Shown: one piece after another, positions 1,102 to 3,641 of the stretch
How the letters are laid out: each line of letters opens with the position of its first letter
Position numbering within the stretch: position 1 is the first letter of the stretch
Notes under the pieces: generated by a model
What the model saw: the letters and a program-made list of their open reading frames with translations, nothing else
What the model was told of the DNA's origin: nothing
Database searches by the model: none
Translations under genes and position numbers: made by a program
From: a virus
Reading direction: 5' to 3' (one strand)
IMG/VR virus record: IMGVR_UViG_3300045988_114963
Length of the DNA stretch: 5,062 nucleotides

Positions 1102-1369
1102 TAGTCTGCACATATTCTATGGCGCGACCAACCATGACAGGAATACGGGACTCGTCACAATTCTCAATGTAATAGCGACCATCGCTGTCACCGAGATTGC
1201 CAATATAATAAAGAGTAAAGTCTTCAGGATACTTTTTAATAAGCATTTTATCATCGTTAACTATACCTTCAAAAGCTCGCAGAGCAAGCATATCGTTGTG
1301 ATAAACCTGCGGAGGACTGAACTGTTCAGCCTTGGAATCATAAATGGAATAAAGTCTCAGCGGAATCAT
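1079..1369 (-). CDS. Small conserved-looking non-structural protein of unknown function (96 aa from ATG 1369, or 102 aa if the TTG at 1387 is used)
   Basis: The ORF is on the same strand as all phage genes and fills the VP4-VP3 gap. Its product MIPLRLYSIYDSKAEQFSPPQVYHNDMLALRAFEGIV... resembles, from memory, a recurrent small Microviridae protein family (-YSIYD-KAE-F-PP...A-R-F). The start is ambiguous. AAGGAG abuts the ATG with no spacing, and the TTG at 1387 has no SD. Confidence 0.65.
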   Translation of the reverse strand: MIPLRLYSIYDSKAEQFSPPQVYHNDMLALRAFEGIVNDDKMLIKKYPEDFTLYYIGNLGDSDGRYYIENCDESRIPVMVGRAIEYVQTIDNDSTK

Positions 1370-1577
1370 CTCCTTTTCTAAGTGCAATTAAATATCTACG
1401 AATCATAAGATAAAGCGTAGCAGATATAACAAAATAATCATTATCAAGACGAATAACCCTACAATCATCAGGCTTTAGACGGTAAGCGGCATATTTACTA
1501 CCACGGAAAAGGTAATTAAAAGGAATATCACGCTCACGACAAAAATTTTTAACAGCTTCAAGTTCACTAATAAGCAT
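1338..1577 (-). CDS. Hypothetical small protein (79 aa) at the VP5/ORF-N position downstream of VP4
   Basis: The ATG at 1577 (the track used GTG at 1580) follows GAGGTG and sits about 20 nt downstream of a strong promoter candidate. The ORF exactly fills the space between VP4 and the next ORF and overlaps that ORF by 32..50 nt in a different frame. I recognise no family motif. Confidence 0.5.
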   Translation of the reverse strand: MLISELEAVKNFCRERDIPFNYLFRGSKYAAYRLKPDDCRVIRLDNDYFVISATLYLMIRRYLIALRKGDDSAETLFHL

Positions 1578-1595
1578 CACCTCACTTCTGACTTA

Positions 1596-1624: not shown

Positions 1625-2519
1625 GCTTTCTGCCAAGAAAATGTTTATATTTACCTTCCTGAACGCGGCAACGGTCAACCAAACGCTCAAAAGTATTGTT
1701 CTCCAAGTTATGAAGCATCTTCTCAATACGGTTGTTACGAATAAACTCCATCCAGTGAGGATGCGTTTCATCAAATTTCTTATCATAATAACGAGGAGGA
1801 CGCATCTTCTTACCATTGATAACAATATAATCATTGGCATAGCATTCTTCACCATGATCCTCGAGCCATTTGGCACCTATGCCAGGACGATTAGAAGCAA
1901 CCATGAATTCAGGAATGCGACCTTTATAGTGAGAAGAAGCATCTTTACCTGTCTGCTTTTTAACTATATAGCGAGCGACATAGGCAGCAGAATCAAAGCT
2001 AAACTCACCAATAAGATGCATACCGTATTTCCATACTTTGGCAAAACGAGAAGAAGTATAGGTATTATAACCATCTGTACGGAACCGAAAAATTTTGTCA
2101 TCAAAATCAATATTAAACAAAATGTAATGATAATGGGGACGACCATGAAGATCACCATATTCACCACAGCCAAGAAAGCGAATACCACTACCATACTCAC
2201 GACGAAGATTTTTCATAAATGTCTGATGAAATTTCTTGCTTAAGCTTTTATCACGTGGCAAATGATAATCGTCGAAAGTGCAAGTAACGAAATAAGCAGA
2301 AGACGAAGAACGGGCTTCGTGAACAGCACGGACAGCCCACTGTCTGCTATTTTCGAGACGACAGCCAATGCATTGTTTACAAGAACAACGAATGAAACGA
2401 CTATCGCCAGCAAGCTCGGGGTGAGAGGCAAGGCTAGCGTAAAAACTATAATGTTGTTTTCCATTTTTTGTAATTGCTCCCTCAACTGGGTACATAAGAA
2501 TAGGATTATAACAAACCAT
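1608..2519 (-). CDS. VP4: Replication initiation protein VP4 (HUH rolling-circle endonuclease, homologue of phiX174 gpA)
   Basis: The ORF carries RCR motif I FVTCTFDD, motif II GRPHYHYILF (HUH) and motif III AAYVARYIVKK (two Tyr spaced as in the phiX174 gpA active site). An N-terminal Cys cluster reads CSCKQCIGC. The likely start is ATG 2519 (MVCYNPIL...), with AGGTGA 5 nt upstream. The track start at GTG 2528 lies inside that SD. Confidence 0.92.
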   Translation of the reverse strand: MVCYNPILMYPVEGAITKNGKQHYSFYASLASHPELAGDSRFIRCSCKQCIGCRLENSRQWAVRAVHEARSSSSAYFVTCTFDDYHLPRDKSLSKKFHQTFMKNLRREYGSGIRFLGCGEYGDLHGRPHYHYILFNIDFDDKIFRFRTDGYNTYTSSRFAKVWKYGMHLIGEFSFDSAAYVARYIVKKQTGKDASSHYKGRIPEFMVASNRPGIGAKWLEDHGEECYANDYIVINGKKMRPPRYYDKKFDETHPHWMEFIRNNRIEKMLHNLENNTFERLVDRCRVQEGKYKHFLGRKLDKVL

Positions 2520-2536
2520 ATTAATCACCTGTACCG

Positions 2537-2565
2537 ATTGTATCAGGATTAAGTCAGAATGTCAA
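2537..2565 (-). promoter_or_regulatory. Sigma70-type promoter candidate for VP4, overlapping the stop of the Arg-rich ORF
   Basis: The minus sense reads TTGACA (2565..2560), then the 17-nt spacer TTCTGACTTAATCCTGA ending in TGn, then TACAAT (2542..2537, 5 of 6). The VP4 SD and ATG follow about 12 to 18 nt after the -10. Confidence 0.55.
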
Positions 2566-2672
2566 ATCCTAAATCCACCTCGTCCTACTCTCTTAAAATT
2601 TCTGCGACGAGATTTGGAGGTATGCCGAAAGAGACGGCGAGAGCCTCGCTTAGATAAACGACGACGTCTCAT
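2562..2672 (-). CDS. VP8: Small arginine-rich DNA-binding/packaging peptide (VP8, functional analogue of phiX174 J), 36 aa
   Basis: I translated this by hand, as it is absent from the ORF track: MRRRRLSKRGSRRLFRHTSKSRRRNFKRVGRGGFRI*. It is extremely basic and ends in the RGG-aromatic-R-hydrophobic pattern typical of gokushovirus VP8 peptides. Its ATG (2672..2670) overlaps the TGA of the preceding ORF as ATGA. Confidence 0.8.
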   Translation of the reverse strand: MRRRRLSKRGSRRLFRHTSKSRRRNFKRVGRGGFRI

Positions 2673-2908
2673 TTAGCATCCCTCCAAGAACCGAAAAAAC
2701 GGCTAGTTTTTTTAGAATCATTCTTATTAGCAACTGGCTCAACAAGTTGAGCAACATCGGCTTGAAAGTCCGAGGCAACCTTTTTAGCAGTAACAGTATT
2801 CGAAGAAGCTTTACCTTTCAGAGCTTCAATTAGATCTACAACTTCCTGAATAAAAGGGACAACAACGGTGACAATAAAAGTAAGAATCATAGTAGTTTTA
2901 TTAGACAT
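2669..2908 (-). CDS. Hypothetical 79-aa protein with one N-terminal hydrophobic (transmembrane-like) segment. Candidate membrane or lysis protein.
   Basis: The ATG at 2908 is preceded by GGAAGGAG at 8-nt spacing and lies 4 nt after the VP2 stop. The product is MSNKTTMILTFIVTVVVPFIQEVVDLIEALKGKASSNTVTAKKVASDFQADVAQLVEPVANKNDSKKTSRFFGSWRDAK. The ORF occupies its own space between VP2 and VP8. The 145-aa track ORF 2669..3106 is an upstream extension of the same frame into VP2. Confidence 0.7.
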   Translation of the reverse strand: MSNKTTMILTFIVTVVVPFIQEVVDLIEALKGKASSNTVTAKKVASDFQADVAQLVEPVANKNDSKKTSRFFGSWRDAK

Positions 2909-2912
2909 AAAA

Positions 2913-3641
2913 TTATCTCCTTCCGAAATAACGACCTCCGAGGAAGCCAAGTACATTTTTGACACCTGAACCAATACCTTTGTAGAGGGAGGTGGTACCA
3001 CCAACTTTATCTTGAATACCTTTATAAAAATCTCTTTCCATGCCAAGCATCTCAGTCTGCATCTGGTCAAAAGCAGAAGCACTGTTAGACCTAGCTGCCG
3101 AGGCAATATTGCTTAAGGCACCAGACTGAAGATAAGAACCTTGAAGGCGCATATTCTCAAGTTCTAAGCGCATCTTTTCAAGCTCGTAACCAAGACGCTT
3201 TTCATAAGTCTGCTCACGAAGATTCAAATCGTTTGCAAGAATACCGTTCTGAAGAACTGTACCATGGGTACTCTGACGCACAGAATCGGCTTCTGCGACG
3301 TTTTTATCAATTTGAGATATTGCAAGATGCTCGGCATTCTTAGCCTGCCTTTCAGCGGCACTAGCGGCTTTAGCAGAGTTCATAGTAGAGCCTATATCAC
3401 TCATACCTACAGAAGCAGCCGAAGCTCCAGATATAGAACCGCCTATGCCATTAGTTGCGGCAAGAATAGGATTAAGACCAGCCTTGCGCATATCTTCTAC
3501 GGCCCATTGATAACGATGTTTATAGTTTTCAACATTCCACGCGTTAGCCTGTGCGGCATTAGCAGAATTGTAATGATTCTGAACTGCAGATCCTAAAACA
3601 GAACCAGCAACACTGCCTAAAGTATTAGAAAGCCATGACAT
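2913..3641 (-). CDS. VP2: Minor capsid / DNA pilot protein VP2
   Basis: This is a 242-aa ORF. ATG 3641 is preceded by AAGGAG at 8 nt, immediately after the VP1 stop. It has a Gly/Ser/Ala-rich N-terminus, the conserved motif YQWAVEDMRKAGLNPILA (gokushovirus VP2 pattern --AGLNP-LA), and a central heptad-like region EKRLGYELEKMRLELENMRLQ. Confidence 0.85.
   Translation of the reverse strand: MSWLSNTLGSVAGSVLGSAVQNHYNSANAAQANAWNVENYKHRYQWAVEDMRKAGLNPILAATNGIGGSISGASAASVGMSDIGSTMNSAKAASAAERQAKNAEHLAISQIDKNVAEADSVRQSTHGTVLQNGILANDLNLREQTYEKRLGYELEKMRLELENMRLQGSYLQSGALSNIASAARSNSASAFDQMQTEMLGMERDFYKGIQDKVGGTTSLYKGIGSGVKNVLGFLGGRYFGRR

What the first reader, a model, noticed from the sequence alone, without database searches (positions are those of the whole stretch)
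2669..2908. Strongly signalled 79-aa N-terminal-TM protein between VP2 and VP8: candidate lysis or membrane effector
Gokushovirinae lack homologues of the phiX174 lysis gene E, and most have no identified lysis function. This ORF is non-overlapping and has a GGAAGGAG SD at 8 nt. It starts 4 nt after the VP2 stop and ends in an ATGA overlap with VP8, so it is almost certainly translated. The product has a short basic N-terminus (MSNK), a roughly 15 to 17-residue hydrophobic stretch containing a proline (TMILTFIVTVVVPFI), and a charged, probably helical tail. This layout resembles single-gene lysis proteins such as phiX174 E, which has an N-terminal TM helix with an essential proline. I recognise no sequence family, so the functional assignment is inference only.
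Basis: inference. Interest (0 to 1): 0.65.

Follow-up and report, generated by a model that had tools for sequence, protein, structure and literature searches.

The report
Conserved small membrane-type protein of gut gokushoviruses
Between the pilot-protein and DNA-binding-protein genes of this complete gut gokushovirus genome lies a real, very strongly conserved 79-codon gene for a small protein with one hydrophobic helix; it is a reasonable but unproven candidate for the host-lysis function that has never been identified in this virus group.

Summary
On the minus strand the ORF runs 2908 to 2669. The SD GGAAGGAG lies 8 nt upstream, the ATG is 4 nt after the VP2 stop, and the stop shares ATGA with the 36-aa VP8 gene.

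It is a real gene:
- It is present in 80 of 80 relatives picked by VP4 similarity.
- dN/dS is 0.06-0.09, as low as VP4 and VP8 and lower than VP1-VP3.
- For codons 1-32, dN/dS is 0.037 with dS 0.36.
- In deeply diverged relatives its first 32 residues are the best-conserved protein segment of the genome.

It matches phrog_23638 (unknown function). There is no Pfam, NCBIfam or PDB relative, and no homology to phiX174 E. About 650 clusters exist, all on roughly 5-5.6 kb microvirus contigs, always in the order VP2, ORF, VP8. The family keeps a fixed 16-residue hydrophobic stretch with invariant I8, L9, F11, P18, F19, I20 and D25, a variable linker, and a C-terminal aromatic-S-R-F-hydrophobic motif.

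The lysis role remains inference, at about 0.4. Arguments against it:
- The family is lineage-restricted.
- Most gokushoviruses sampled, and by published description the plaque-forming EC6098, lack any such gene.
- The SD is as strong as those of the virion genes.
- The hydrophobic stretch is short.

The parts
2669..2908 (-). ORF79 coding sequence (79 codons plus TGA); member of phrog_23638.
   Evidence: Intact in all relatives. dN/dS 0.057-0.090.
2917..2924 (-). Shine-Dalgarno GGAAGGAG for ORF79, embedded in the last VP2 codons, 8 nt before the ATG.
   Evidence: Duplex energy with the 16S 3' end is -8.8 kcal/mol, compared with -8.3 for VP2 and -9.8 for VP8.
2813..2908 (-). Codons 1-32, the conserved N-terminal block (K4, hydrophobic stretch, P18-F19-I20, Q21-E22, D25). 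It is the best-conserved protein segment of the genome in deep comparisons.
   Evidence: dN/dS 0.037 with dS 0.36. It is 56-78% identical in relatives whose VP1 is 50-60% and VP4 34-53% identical. Invariant positions.
2849..2896 (-). Codons 5-20 (TTMILTFIVTVVVPFI): a 16-residue uncharged stretch, the putative single transmembrane helix.
   Evidence: Hydropathy. Its length is fixed at 16 in the diverged members scored and appears so by eye in the other representatives listed. The central positions 12-17 vary only among hydrophobic or small residues. AF2 helix with block-mean pLDDT 87-96.
2693..2704 (-). Codons 69-72 (S-R-F-F), the core of the conserved C-terminal aromatic-S-R-F-hydrophobic motif.
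   Evidence: The motif is kept in all full-length diverged members. It is encoded by different codons in different lineages, so the constraint is on the protein.
2671..2745 (-). The last ~25 codons of ORF79, up to the VP8 start codon. The stretch is almost invariant at the nucleotide level and includes the VP8 SD (GGAGGG).
   Evidence: Divergence is 0.2-1.3% here against 4-18% in most flanking bins, in 121 distinct relatives. dS is 0.02. Codon table. The RNA fold is not significant.
2562..2672 (-). VP8 (36-aa arginine-rich, J-like DNA-binding protein). Its ATG overlaps the ORF79 stop (ATGA).
   Evidence: A 36-37-aa basic ORF follows the family member in all 13 genomes examined.
2913..3641 (-). 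VP2 (DNA pilot protein), immediately upstream. Its last codons carry the ORF79 SD.
   Evidence: phrog_8693, E 1.8e-91. In diverged relatives the ORF starts from 14 nt inside VP2 to 15 nt after its stop, with two exceptions of about 120 nt.

Best explanation
ORF79 is an expressed gene that appears indispensable in this lineage of mammalian-gut gokushoviruses. It encodes a small bitopic protein.

Proposed anatomy:
- One conserved basic residue (K4) holds the N-terminus in the cytoplasm.
- A fixed-length 16-residue hydrophobic helix with invariant ends (I8-L9-x-F11 and P18-F19-I20) sits in the cytoplasmic membrane.
- A conserved acidic amphipathic segment (Q21-E22-x-x-D25) lies at the membrane surface.
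- A variable helical linker carries a conserved C-terminal aromatic-S-R-F-hydrophobic motif.

Proposed expression: it is translated from the same message as VP2 and VP8, from a strong SD, and terminates on the VP8 start codon (ATGA).

Proposed function: it acts on the host envelope to release progeny, as a single-gene lysis effector. The conserved membrane helix would either engage a conserved membrane step of cell-wall synthesis (E-like or 'amurin' logic) or accumulate to a threshold and depolarise the membrane, letting host autolysins act (holin-like logic).

Shown: it is a real gene under strong protein-level selection, with fixed synteny, a hydrophobic helix and no known homologue.
Inferred: membrane insertion, topology, and everything about lysis.
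For: Gene reality and constraint. dN/dS is 0.06-0.09, and 0.037 for codons 1-32 with dS 0.36. It is present in 80 of 80 VP4-selected relatives. The N-terminal block is more conserved than VP1.

Expression signals. The promoter/terminator scan lists no promoter-like site and no classical G+C-rich terminator between the VP2 start and the VP8 stop, only two weak terminator-like matches at 2949-2932 and 2649-2637.

Hydrophobic helix with invariant proline, and charged tail (10 K/R, 8 D/E). The variable, purely hydrophobic or small centre with invariant ends is what a lipid-embedded helix with specific interfacial contacts would look like.

No other candidate:
- Every other non-overlapping gene is assigned (VP1-5, VP8) except ORF80. 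ORF80 is not hydrophobic by inspection of its translation, is weakly constrained, and is absent from diverged relatives.
- No endolysin or peptidase is encoded.
- The overprinted hydrophobic +1-frame ORFs are no longer than synonymous-codon shuffles produce.

Open question in the field: gokushoviruses lack a recognised lysis gene (PMC7062461, PMC3394797, PMC9239249).

Sporadic, unrelated small hydrophobic ORFs appear at other gene borders in a few other gokushoviruses (L133/L145, L153, L171). This recalls the scattered, independently arising sgl genes of ssRNA phages (PMC7693330, abstract only).
Against: No experiment or homology links the protein to lysis.
- The family is lineage-restricted (20 of 2924 records).
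- 65 of 74 other gokushoviruses have no analogous gene.
- The lytic EC6098 is described as having only six genes (PMC7062461). An ancestral lysis mechanism must therefore exist elsewhere and may still operate here.
- The SD is as strong as those of the virion proteins, whereas E is made in small amounts (established knowledge).
- Known single-gene lysis proteins are usually poorly conserved outside the functional helix (established knowledge). Here three separate blocks are conserved, and the N-terminal block is more conserved than the capsid protein. That pattern also suits a protein making several specific contacts with viral partners.
- The gene sits inside the virion-protein block VP1-VP2-X-VP8.
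- The hydrophobic stretch is only 16 residues, with a crude positive insertion energy. It is comparable to MS2 L but weaker than E or Rz (comparison sequences recalled from memory).
- No dedicated TM predictor was available.
Confidence: 0.4

Rival explanations
1. ORF79 is a morphogenesis or DNA-delivery accessory that works with VP2 and/or VP8. It could be a minor virion protein, or an assembly factor whose hydrophobic helix is buried in a protein complex or helps the pilot protein cross the membrane. Its C-terminal S-R-F motif would dock on a viral partner.
For: - The position is invariant between the two internal virion proteins VP2 and VP8, with translational juxtaposition or coupling to both.
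- The SD strength equals those of VP2 and VP8.
- Conservation of three separate blocks is stronger than for VP1 and VP2.
- VP2 proteins of this lineage end in a similar R-Y-F-G motif, including two genomes where the ORF lies about 120 nt away so that the motif is not the SD. None of 72 VP2 proteins from other gokushoviruses has it.
- The hydrophobic stretch is short for a bilayer.
Against: - The cultured reference gokushoviruses Chp2 and phiMH2K have no gene at this position. EC6098 is described as having only six genes (PMC7062461). Most of the other gokushoviruses sampled lack such a gene. The core particle therefore does not need it.
- The C-terminal similarity to VP2 is a four-residue motif defined after the fact.
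- There are no proteomic data.
Confidence: 0.25
2. ORF79 is a membrane protein with another host-directed role. Options are superinfection exclusion, anchoring of replication or assembly at the membrane, or a modulator of burst size or timing like phiX174 K. Lysis would be encoded elsewhere.
For: - It is a lineage-specific accessory gene in the larger, mammal-associated genomes (PMC9239249).
- It has membrane-type architecture.
- The subfamily as a whole lyses without it (PMC7062461).
Against: - Accessory modulators such as K are dispensable and usually evolve fast. ORF79 was never lost in 80 of 80 relatives and has one of the lowest dN/dS values in the genome.
- Nothing specific points to any one of these roles.
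Confidence: 0.2
3. The lysis gene of this phage is an overprinted hydrophobic ORF, as in phiX174. The candidates are the +1-frame ORFs inside VP4 (1964-2200 and 2240-2485, minus strand). The first lies in the same frame and region as phiMH2K orfN, which its GenBank record annotates as 'similar to phiX174 E and K'. This reading is compatible with rivals 1 and 2.
For: - These ORFs stay open in 77-80 close relatives.
- They are very hydrophobic (KD 2.6-3.2).
- Open hydrophobic +1 stretches recur in the VP4 genes of diverged relatives.
Against: - Synonymous-codon shuffles of VP4 give equally long open +1 frames (mean 109 codons; P = 0.66). The number of +1 stops equals expectation in every gene.
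- Their positions shift between lineages.
- There is no SD evidence.
- Their hydrophobicity follows from the VP4 amino-acid sequence.
Confidence: 0.12
4. ORF79 is a chance ORF or a non-coding spacer.
For: None beyond its small size and lack of annotation in some GenBank records.
Against: Searches show strong protein-level purifying selection, conserved start and stop, and conserved synteny across deep divergence.
Confidence: 0.01

Closest known systems
phrog_23638 and GenBank 'hypothetical protein' (e.g. ARQ16029.1 of Human gut gokushovirus SH-CHD9, KX513872)
   Same: Full-length match, E 5e-51 over residues 1-79 of a 79-position profile. Same position after VP2 in KX513872, MG945573 and others.
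   Different: Nothing differs; this is the same family. It carries no functional annotation. Several records leave the ORF unannotated.
phiX174 lysis protein E (Pfam Microvir_lysis), an inhibitor of MraY
   Same: A small protein of a microvirus with an N-terminal hydrophobic helix containing a conserved proline and a charged tail. The helix is the most conserved part. The gene ends right at the start of the J-like gene (for E: established knowledge).
   Different: - No sequence similarity.
- Not overprinted in another gene.
- Strong SD.
- The hydrophobic stretch is 16 residues against about 24, and less hydrophobic.
- The flanking charges suggest the opposite topology.
- Two further conserved blocks lie outside the helix.
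Holins with one transmembrane domain (class III type)
   Same: Meets the generic descriptive criteria: small, one hydrophobic helix, a highly charged hydrophilic C-terminal part, and signals for abundant expression.
   Different: - No endolysin gene in the genome.
- No match to any holin family.
- No conserved dual-start motif. M7 is replaced by A, L or I in diverged members.
Bdellovibrio phage phiMH2K orfN (annotated 'similar to phiX174 E and K')
   Same: The only candidate lysis or membrane ORF annotated in the three reference isolate records I opened (phiMH2K, Chp2, SpV4). It has one hydrophobic segment.
   Different: orfN is overprinted in VP4 and is unrelated in sequence and position. Its positional analogue in this window (1964-2200) has no statistical support.
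Lambda Rz-type i-spanin (architecture only)
   Same: A short N-terminus with one basic residue, a signal-anchor-like helix, then a helical domain with a conserved C-terminal contact motif. Compare MRVTAILAF... in family members with MSRVTAIISAL... in Rz (Rz recalled from memory).
   Different: - No homology.
- Much shorter.
- No o-spanin partner and no holin-endolysin genes.
- The host may be Gram-positive (weak hints).

Membership tests
phrog_23638 (unknown function) | Full-length match to the family profile | tested here: met
   E 5e-51, 172 bits, residues 1-79 on profile positions 1-79 of 79.
phiX174 E / Microvir_lysis | Sequence homology to E | tested here: not met
   No Pfam family at E <= 1. 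No PDB chain of E found with the family profile at E <= 10.
phiX174 E / Microvir_lysis | Gene overprinted inside the scaffolding gene | tested here: not met
   ORF79 occupies its own interval between VP2 and VP8. It overlaps its neighbours by 0 and 4 nt.
phiX174 E / Microvir_lysis | N-terminal transmembrane helix with an essential proline | tested here: inconclusive
   The hydrophobic helix with invariant P18 is present. It is only 16 residues long, and the crude insertion energy is positive. Membrane insertion was not tested.
phiX174 E / Microvir_lysis | Inhibition of MraY, dependence on SlyD, septal lysis | not testable with these tools
   Needs expression and suppressor genetics.
Holins (generic criteria) | Small size, at least one transmembrane domain, charged hydrophilic C-terminus | tested here: met
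   79 aa, one hydrophobic stretch, and a tail with 10 K/R and 8 D/E. These criteria are descriptive, not diagnostic.
Holins (generic criteria) | Adjacent endolysin gene / lysis cassette | tested here: not met
   No muralytic domain in any ORF of the genome.
Holins (generic criteria) | Membership of a described holin sequence family | tested here: not met
   No Pfam, NCBIfam or PHROG hit with a lysis annotation.
Spanins (i-spanin) | N-terminal signal anchor plus periplasmic coiled coil, with a partner o-spanin lipoprotein gene | tested here: not met
   By inspection of the ORF list, no lipobox ORF is embedded in or adjacent to ORF79. No family match.
Gokushovirus core gene set (VP1-VP5, VP8) | Present across the subfamily | tested here: not met
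   tblastn finds the family in 20 of 2924 VP4-bearing records. It is not annotated in phiMH2K or Chp2. It was absent from 74 diverse genomes.

The most novel reading that the evidence does not exclude
ORF79 and its relatives are the missing lysis proteins of a large lineage of mammalian-gut gokushoviruses. They would be a new, sequence-unrelated family of single-gene lysis proteins. Their unusually conserved 16-residue membrane helix (I-L-x-F ... P-F-I-Q-E-x-x-D) would bind a conserved envelope-synthesis protein of a probably clostridial (Gram-positive) host, a target or host class not yet described for any single-gene lysis protein.
Probability: 0.3. Interest if true: 0.75.

Novelty: new member of a known kind. 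Interest (0 to 1): 0.5.

Why it matters
How gokushoviruses, the most widespread microviruses, get out of their hosts is unknown. No lysis gene has been identified apart from occasional borrowed peptidases.

This work turns a vague 'hypothetical protein' into a defined candidate with testable features:
- a real gene that is never lost and is as constrained as the replication initiator;
- precise conserved residues to mutate (K4, I8, L9, F11, P18, F19, I20, D25, R70, F71);
- a fixed genomic position.

If it is a lysis protein, its target would be a new 'protein antibiotic' lead, possibly in Gram-positive gut anaerobes. If instead it is a virion or assembly partner of VP2, it changes the accepted six-protein picture of the gokushovirus particle for this lineage. 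Either way the function is open. The gene is already catalogued without function (PHROG, GenBank), so what is new is the evidence and the hypothesis, not the sequence.

Tried and rejected
- VP2-ORF79 fusion. Three GenBank records list the match 'under VP2'. Inspection shows only an 8-nt overlap of a slightly longer VP2 with the ORF start, not a fusion.
- Cleaved signal peptide. There is no small residue at -1 and -3 after the hydrophobic stretch, and no conserved A-x-A in diverged members (sequence inspection).
- Holin-type dual start (M1...K4...M7). M7 is not conserved in diverged members.
- C-terminal conservation as a by-product of the VP8 SD. This holds only for W75-R76 (TGG AGG) in close relatives. 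The S-R-F core is kept when VP8 starts up to 217 nt downstream and is encoded by different codons.
- One-sided helix conservation. The conservation moment is about 0.05, so the invariant residues do not lie on one face.
- PDB and NCBIfam. The only hits are designed helical repeat proteins and sub-threshold noise. I did not run a fold search, because a single-helix model gives meaningless matches.
- Overprinted rivals. They are not distinguishable from compositional expectation.
- RNA element in the invariant 3' stretch. The fold z-score is 0.48, and there is no Rfam family.
- Host from prophages:
  - The GTDB genome scan gave one hit, a 5.5-kb free microvirus contig binned in a Clostridiales MAG.
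  - One 15.8-kb IMG/VR contig (L009) joins the phage to genes for CsrA, an ECF sigma factor, RelB/ParE, ArdA and TcpC. The TcpC is closest (about 70% aa identity) to those of Clostridioides, Vescimonas and Clostridium perfringens.
  - The junction lies inside ORF80 with no evident attachment site, so it may be a chimeric assembly. It is only a weak hint of a clostridial host.
- One look-up of a diverged member (P0148) found no contig.

Full report
**What is there**

All genes of the window lie on the minus strand, and the window is a complete circular 5062-nt gokushovirus genome. VP1 runs across the window ends.

The gene order is:
- VP1
- VP2 (2913-3641)
- ORF79 (2669-2908)
- VP8 (2562-2672)
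- VP4 (1608-2528)
- ORF80 (1338-1580)
- VP5 (1079-1387)
- VP3 (490-972)

PHROG and Pfam matches confirm VP1-VP5. The closest GenBank genomes are human, pig and dog gut gokushoviruses at 85-92% nucleotide identity, with one record at 99% or more.

- GGAAGGAG (2924-2917) lies 8 nt before the ATG (2908).
- The ATG is 4 nt after the VP2 stop.
- The TGA shares ATGA with the VP8 start.

**It is a real gene**

ORF79 is intact in all 83 loci retrieved by similarity to it. It was found in all 80 loci retrieved independently by similarity to VP4, spanning the full length in 76. IMG/VR holds 246 contigs with the ORF and 239 with this VP4, so the two travel together.

Pairwise Nei-Gojobori dN/dS values:

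| Gene | ORF79-selected set | VP4-selected set |
|---|---|---|
| ORF79 | 0.057 | 0.090 |
| VP4 | 0.067 | 0.044 |
| VP8 | 0.065 | 0.096 |
| VP2 | 0.127 | 0.158 |
| VP3 | 0.129 | 0.150 |
| VP1 | 0.206 | 0.196 |
| VP5 | 0.212 | 0.184 |
| ORF80 | 0.376 | 0.402 |

Each set is biased in favour of the gene used to pick it. ORF79 stays among the three most constrained genes in both. Codons 1-32 have dS 0.36 and dN/dS 0.037, so many synonymous codons are in use and almost no amino-acid change occurs.

**The family**

ORF79 matches phrog_23638 (unknown function) end to end. It is annotated 'hypothetical protein', or not annotated at all, in GenBank relatives.

Searches of very large protein collections found:
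- 492 clusters at 90% identity with the single sequence;
- 653 clusters with a profile of diverged members;
- 29 clusters at 50% identity.

All listed hits lie on contigs of about 5-5.6 kb or shorter fragments, plus a few contigs of 8-10 kb that I did not inspect. None carries a meaningful name; one JGI entry is labelled 'nucleoside diphosphate kinase', with no supporting domain.

Diverged members are 75-102 aa and share three blocks:
- an N-terminal block, M-S-x-K-T-T-x-I-L-T-F-(6 hydrophobic or small residues)-P-F-I-Q-E-x-x-D-F-I-x-x-L-K;
- a weaker mid-helix motif, V-x-S/D-D-L/I/F;
- a C-terminal aromatic-S-R-F-L/F/I motif followed by a few mostly basic residues.

The linker varies in length and sequence.

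In relatives whose VP1 is 50-60%, VP4 34-53% and VP2 32-61% identical to the window's, the first 32 residues of ORF79 are 56-78% identical. That makes them the best-conserved segment in the genome. The S-R-F core uses different Ser, Arg and Phe codons in different lineages. It persists where VP8 starts up to 217 nt downstream. It is therefore a protein-level motif and not a shadow of the VP8 ribosome-binding site.

**Synteny**

In every diverged homologue examined, the order is VP2, family member, then a 36-37-aa arginine-rich VP8. These are L084-L088 and L092-L098.

The start lies from 14 nt inside VP2 to 15 nt after its stop in most genomes. Two genomes have a gap of about 120 nt.

**Physical character**

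- The uncharged stretch T5-I20 is 16 residues in the window protein and in the diverged members checked.
- The Kyte-Doolittle 19-residue mean is 2.07 in the window protein and 1.6-2.0 in the two diverged members scored.
- A crude sum on the biological hydrophobicity scale is positive (+3.9). This is similar to MS2 L and clearly weaker than phiX174 E or lambda Rz. The comparison sequences were recalled from memory.
- AlphaFold2 gives a single helix over residues 2-56, with block-mean pLDDT 87-96 over the first 30 residues.
- Positions 12-17 vary among I/L/V/A/S/T, while both ends of the stretch are invariant. The invariant residues do not lie on one helical face.
- The conserved K4 before the helix and the conserved E22 and D25 after it suggest N-terminus in, C-terminus out. 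That is the opposite of E. This is inference; no topology predictor was available.

**Expression**

The SD duplex energies are:
- ORF79: -8.8 kcal/mol
- VP2: -8.3 kcal/mol
- VP8: -9.8 kcal/mol

All have about 7-nt spacers.

Between the VP2 start and the VP8 stop, the scan lists no promoter-like site and only two weak terminator-like matches, at 2949-2932 and 2649-2637. A near-consensus promoter-like site follows VP8, at 2565-2537. ORF79 should therefore be made in amounts comparable to the flanking virion proteins.

**Is it the lysis gene?**

For:
- The literature states that gokushoviruses lack a phiX-type lysis gene. Only some carry acquired peptidases (PMC7062461, PMC3394797, PMC9239249).
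- This genome has no muralytic domain.
- ORF79 is its only unassigned, strongly selected, membrane-type gene.
- Its layout resembles known small lysis proteins.

Against:
- The family is found by tblastn in only 20 of 2924 VP4-bearing microvirus records.
- In a sample of 74 diverse gokushoviruses, only 9 have any non-overlapping small ORF with a hydrophobic segment. About four to five of those look credible, and they sit at other positions and have unrelated sequences.
- Neither phiMH2K nor Chp2 has a gene at this position.
- EC6098 forms plaques on E. coli and is described as having only six genes (PMC7062461).
- The strong SD, the three conserved blocks and the position inside the virion-gene block fit an assembly or virion partner of VP2 and VP8 equally well.

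One further observation bears on the assembly reading. VP2 proteins of this lineage end in R-Y-F-G. This is like the ORF's S-R-F-F-G, and the motif is absent from 72 VP2 proteins of other gokushoviruses. Part of that VP2 motif is the ORF79 SD, and the resemblance is short.

**Overprinted rivals**

Hydrophobic +1-frame ORFs inside VP4 (1964-2200 and 2240-2485) stay open in close relatives. The first corresponds in frame and region to phiMH2K orfN, which is annotated 'similar to E and K'.

Synonymous-codon shuffles give equally long open +1 frames in every gene (VP4: mean 109 codons, P = 0.66). Stop counts also match expectation. These ORFs therefore have no support, although they are not excluded.

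**Host**

All hints are weak:
- Strong GGAGG-type SDs and 41% G+C.
- One related 5.5-kb contig binned in a Clostridiales MAG.
- One 15.8-kb contig that joins the phage to Tn916-like genes closest to those of Clostridia. The junction lies inside ORF80 and may be an assembly chimera.

**Verdict**

My probabilities are:
- about 0.4 for a lysis or envelope effector;
- 0.25 for a virion or assembly accessory;
- 0.2 for another membrane role.

The sequence family is already catalogued without function. What is new is the evidence for extreme constraint, the defined motifs and the fixed synteny.

Noticed in passing
window 2671-2745 (minus strand), with inverted repeat at 2737-2752: The last ~25 codons of ORF79, right up to the VP8 ATG, are almost invariant at the nucleotide level in 121 distinct relatives. 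Divergence is 0.2-1.3% against 4-18% in most flanking bins, and dS is 0.02 against 0.36 for codons 1-32. Conservation stops exactly at the VP8 start. The RNA fold is not significant. Just upstream lies a 7-bp inverted repeat, GCTCAAC-TT-GTTGAGC, that contains CAACTTG, the heptamer at the phiX174 origin nick site (recalled from memory). This may be a cis element: VP8 translation control, an origin, or something else.
   Followed up: partly
window 2506-2580 (minus strand): A second nearly invariant stretch (divergence about 1%). It covers the VP8 3' end, a near-consensus promoter-like site TTGACA-17-TACAAT with an upstream TG (2565-2537), and the VP4 start.
   Followed up: no
window 1338-1580 (minus strand), ORF80: An unassigned 80-codon ORF between VP4 and VP5. 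dN/dS is 0.38-0.40. It has no PHROG or Pfam match and was not detectable in diverged relatives except L097 (31% identity). It is either a fast-evolving accessory gene or not a gene.
   Followed up: partly
window 1964-2200 and 2240-2485 (minus strand, +1 frame of VP4): Very hydrophobic overprinted ORFs that stay open in close relatives. The first is in the same frame and region as phiMH2K orfN ('similar to phiX174 E and K'). Synonymous shuffles show that such open +1 frames are expected from composition.
   Followed up: yes
window 2650-2778 (minus strand, +1 frame inside ORF79); protein P0124: A leucine-rich 42-codon +1-frame ORF overlaps the 3' half of ORF79. One database protein (P0124) is a frameshift fusion of the ORF79 N-terminus to this frame, at the AAAAAG run (codons 42-43). 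It is probably a sequencing indel in a homopolymer. The +1 ORF is present in several diverged genomes but not all.
   Followed up: partly
window 2916-2930 (VP2 C-terminus) versus 2693-2704: VP2 ends in G-R-Y-F-G-R-R and ORF79 ends in S-R-F-F-G-S-W-R. VP2 proteins of ORF79-bearing lineages often end in [KR]-R-Y-F/T-G, while 0 of 72 VP2 proteins from other gokushoviruses do. The G-R-R / G-G part is explained by the ORF79 SD. The R-Y-F part also occurs where the ORF lies about 120 nt away.
   Followed up: partly
L133 and L145 (about 1550-1745), L153 (about 1606-1788), L171 (about 2588-2713): Other gokushoviruses carry unrelated small hydrophobic ORFs at other borders. A homologous 55-59-aa pair and a 60-aa ORF lie between VP1 and VP2. 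A 41-aa ORF is ATGA-coupled to the VP2 stop. These are possible independent inventions of small membrane proteins.
   Followed up: no
L009 4473-9288 (IMGVR_UViG_3300008383_000153): A contig in which a close relative of this phage is joined, inside ORF80, to genes for CsrA, an ECF sigma factor, RelB/ParE, ArdA, TcpC and a response regulator. The TcpC is about 70% identical to those of Clostridioides, Vescimonas and C. perfringens. It is either an integration into a clostridial mobile element or an assembly chimera.
   Followed up: partly
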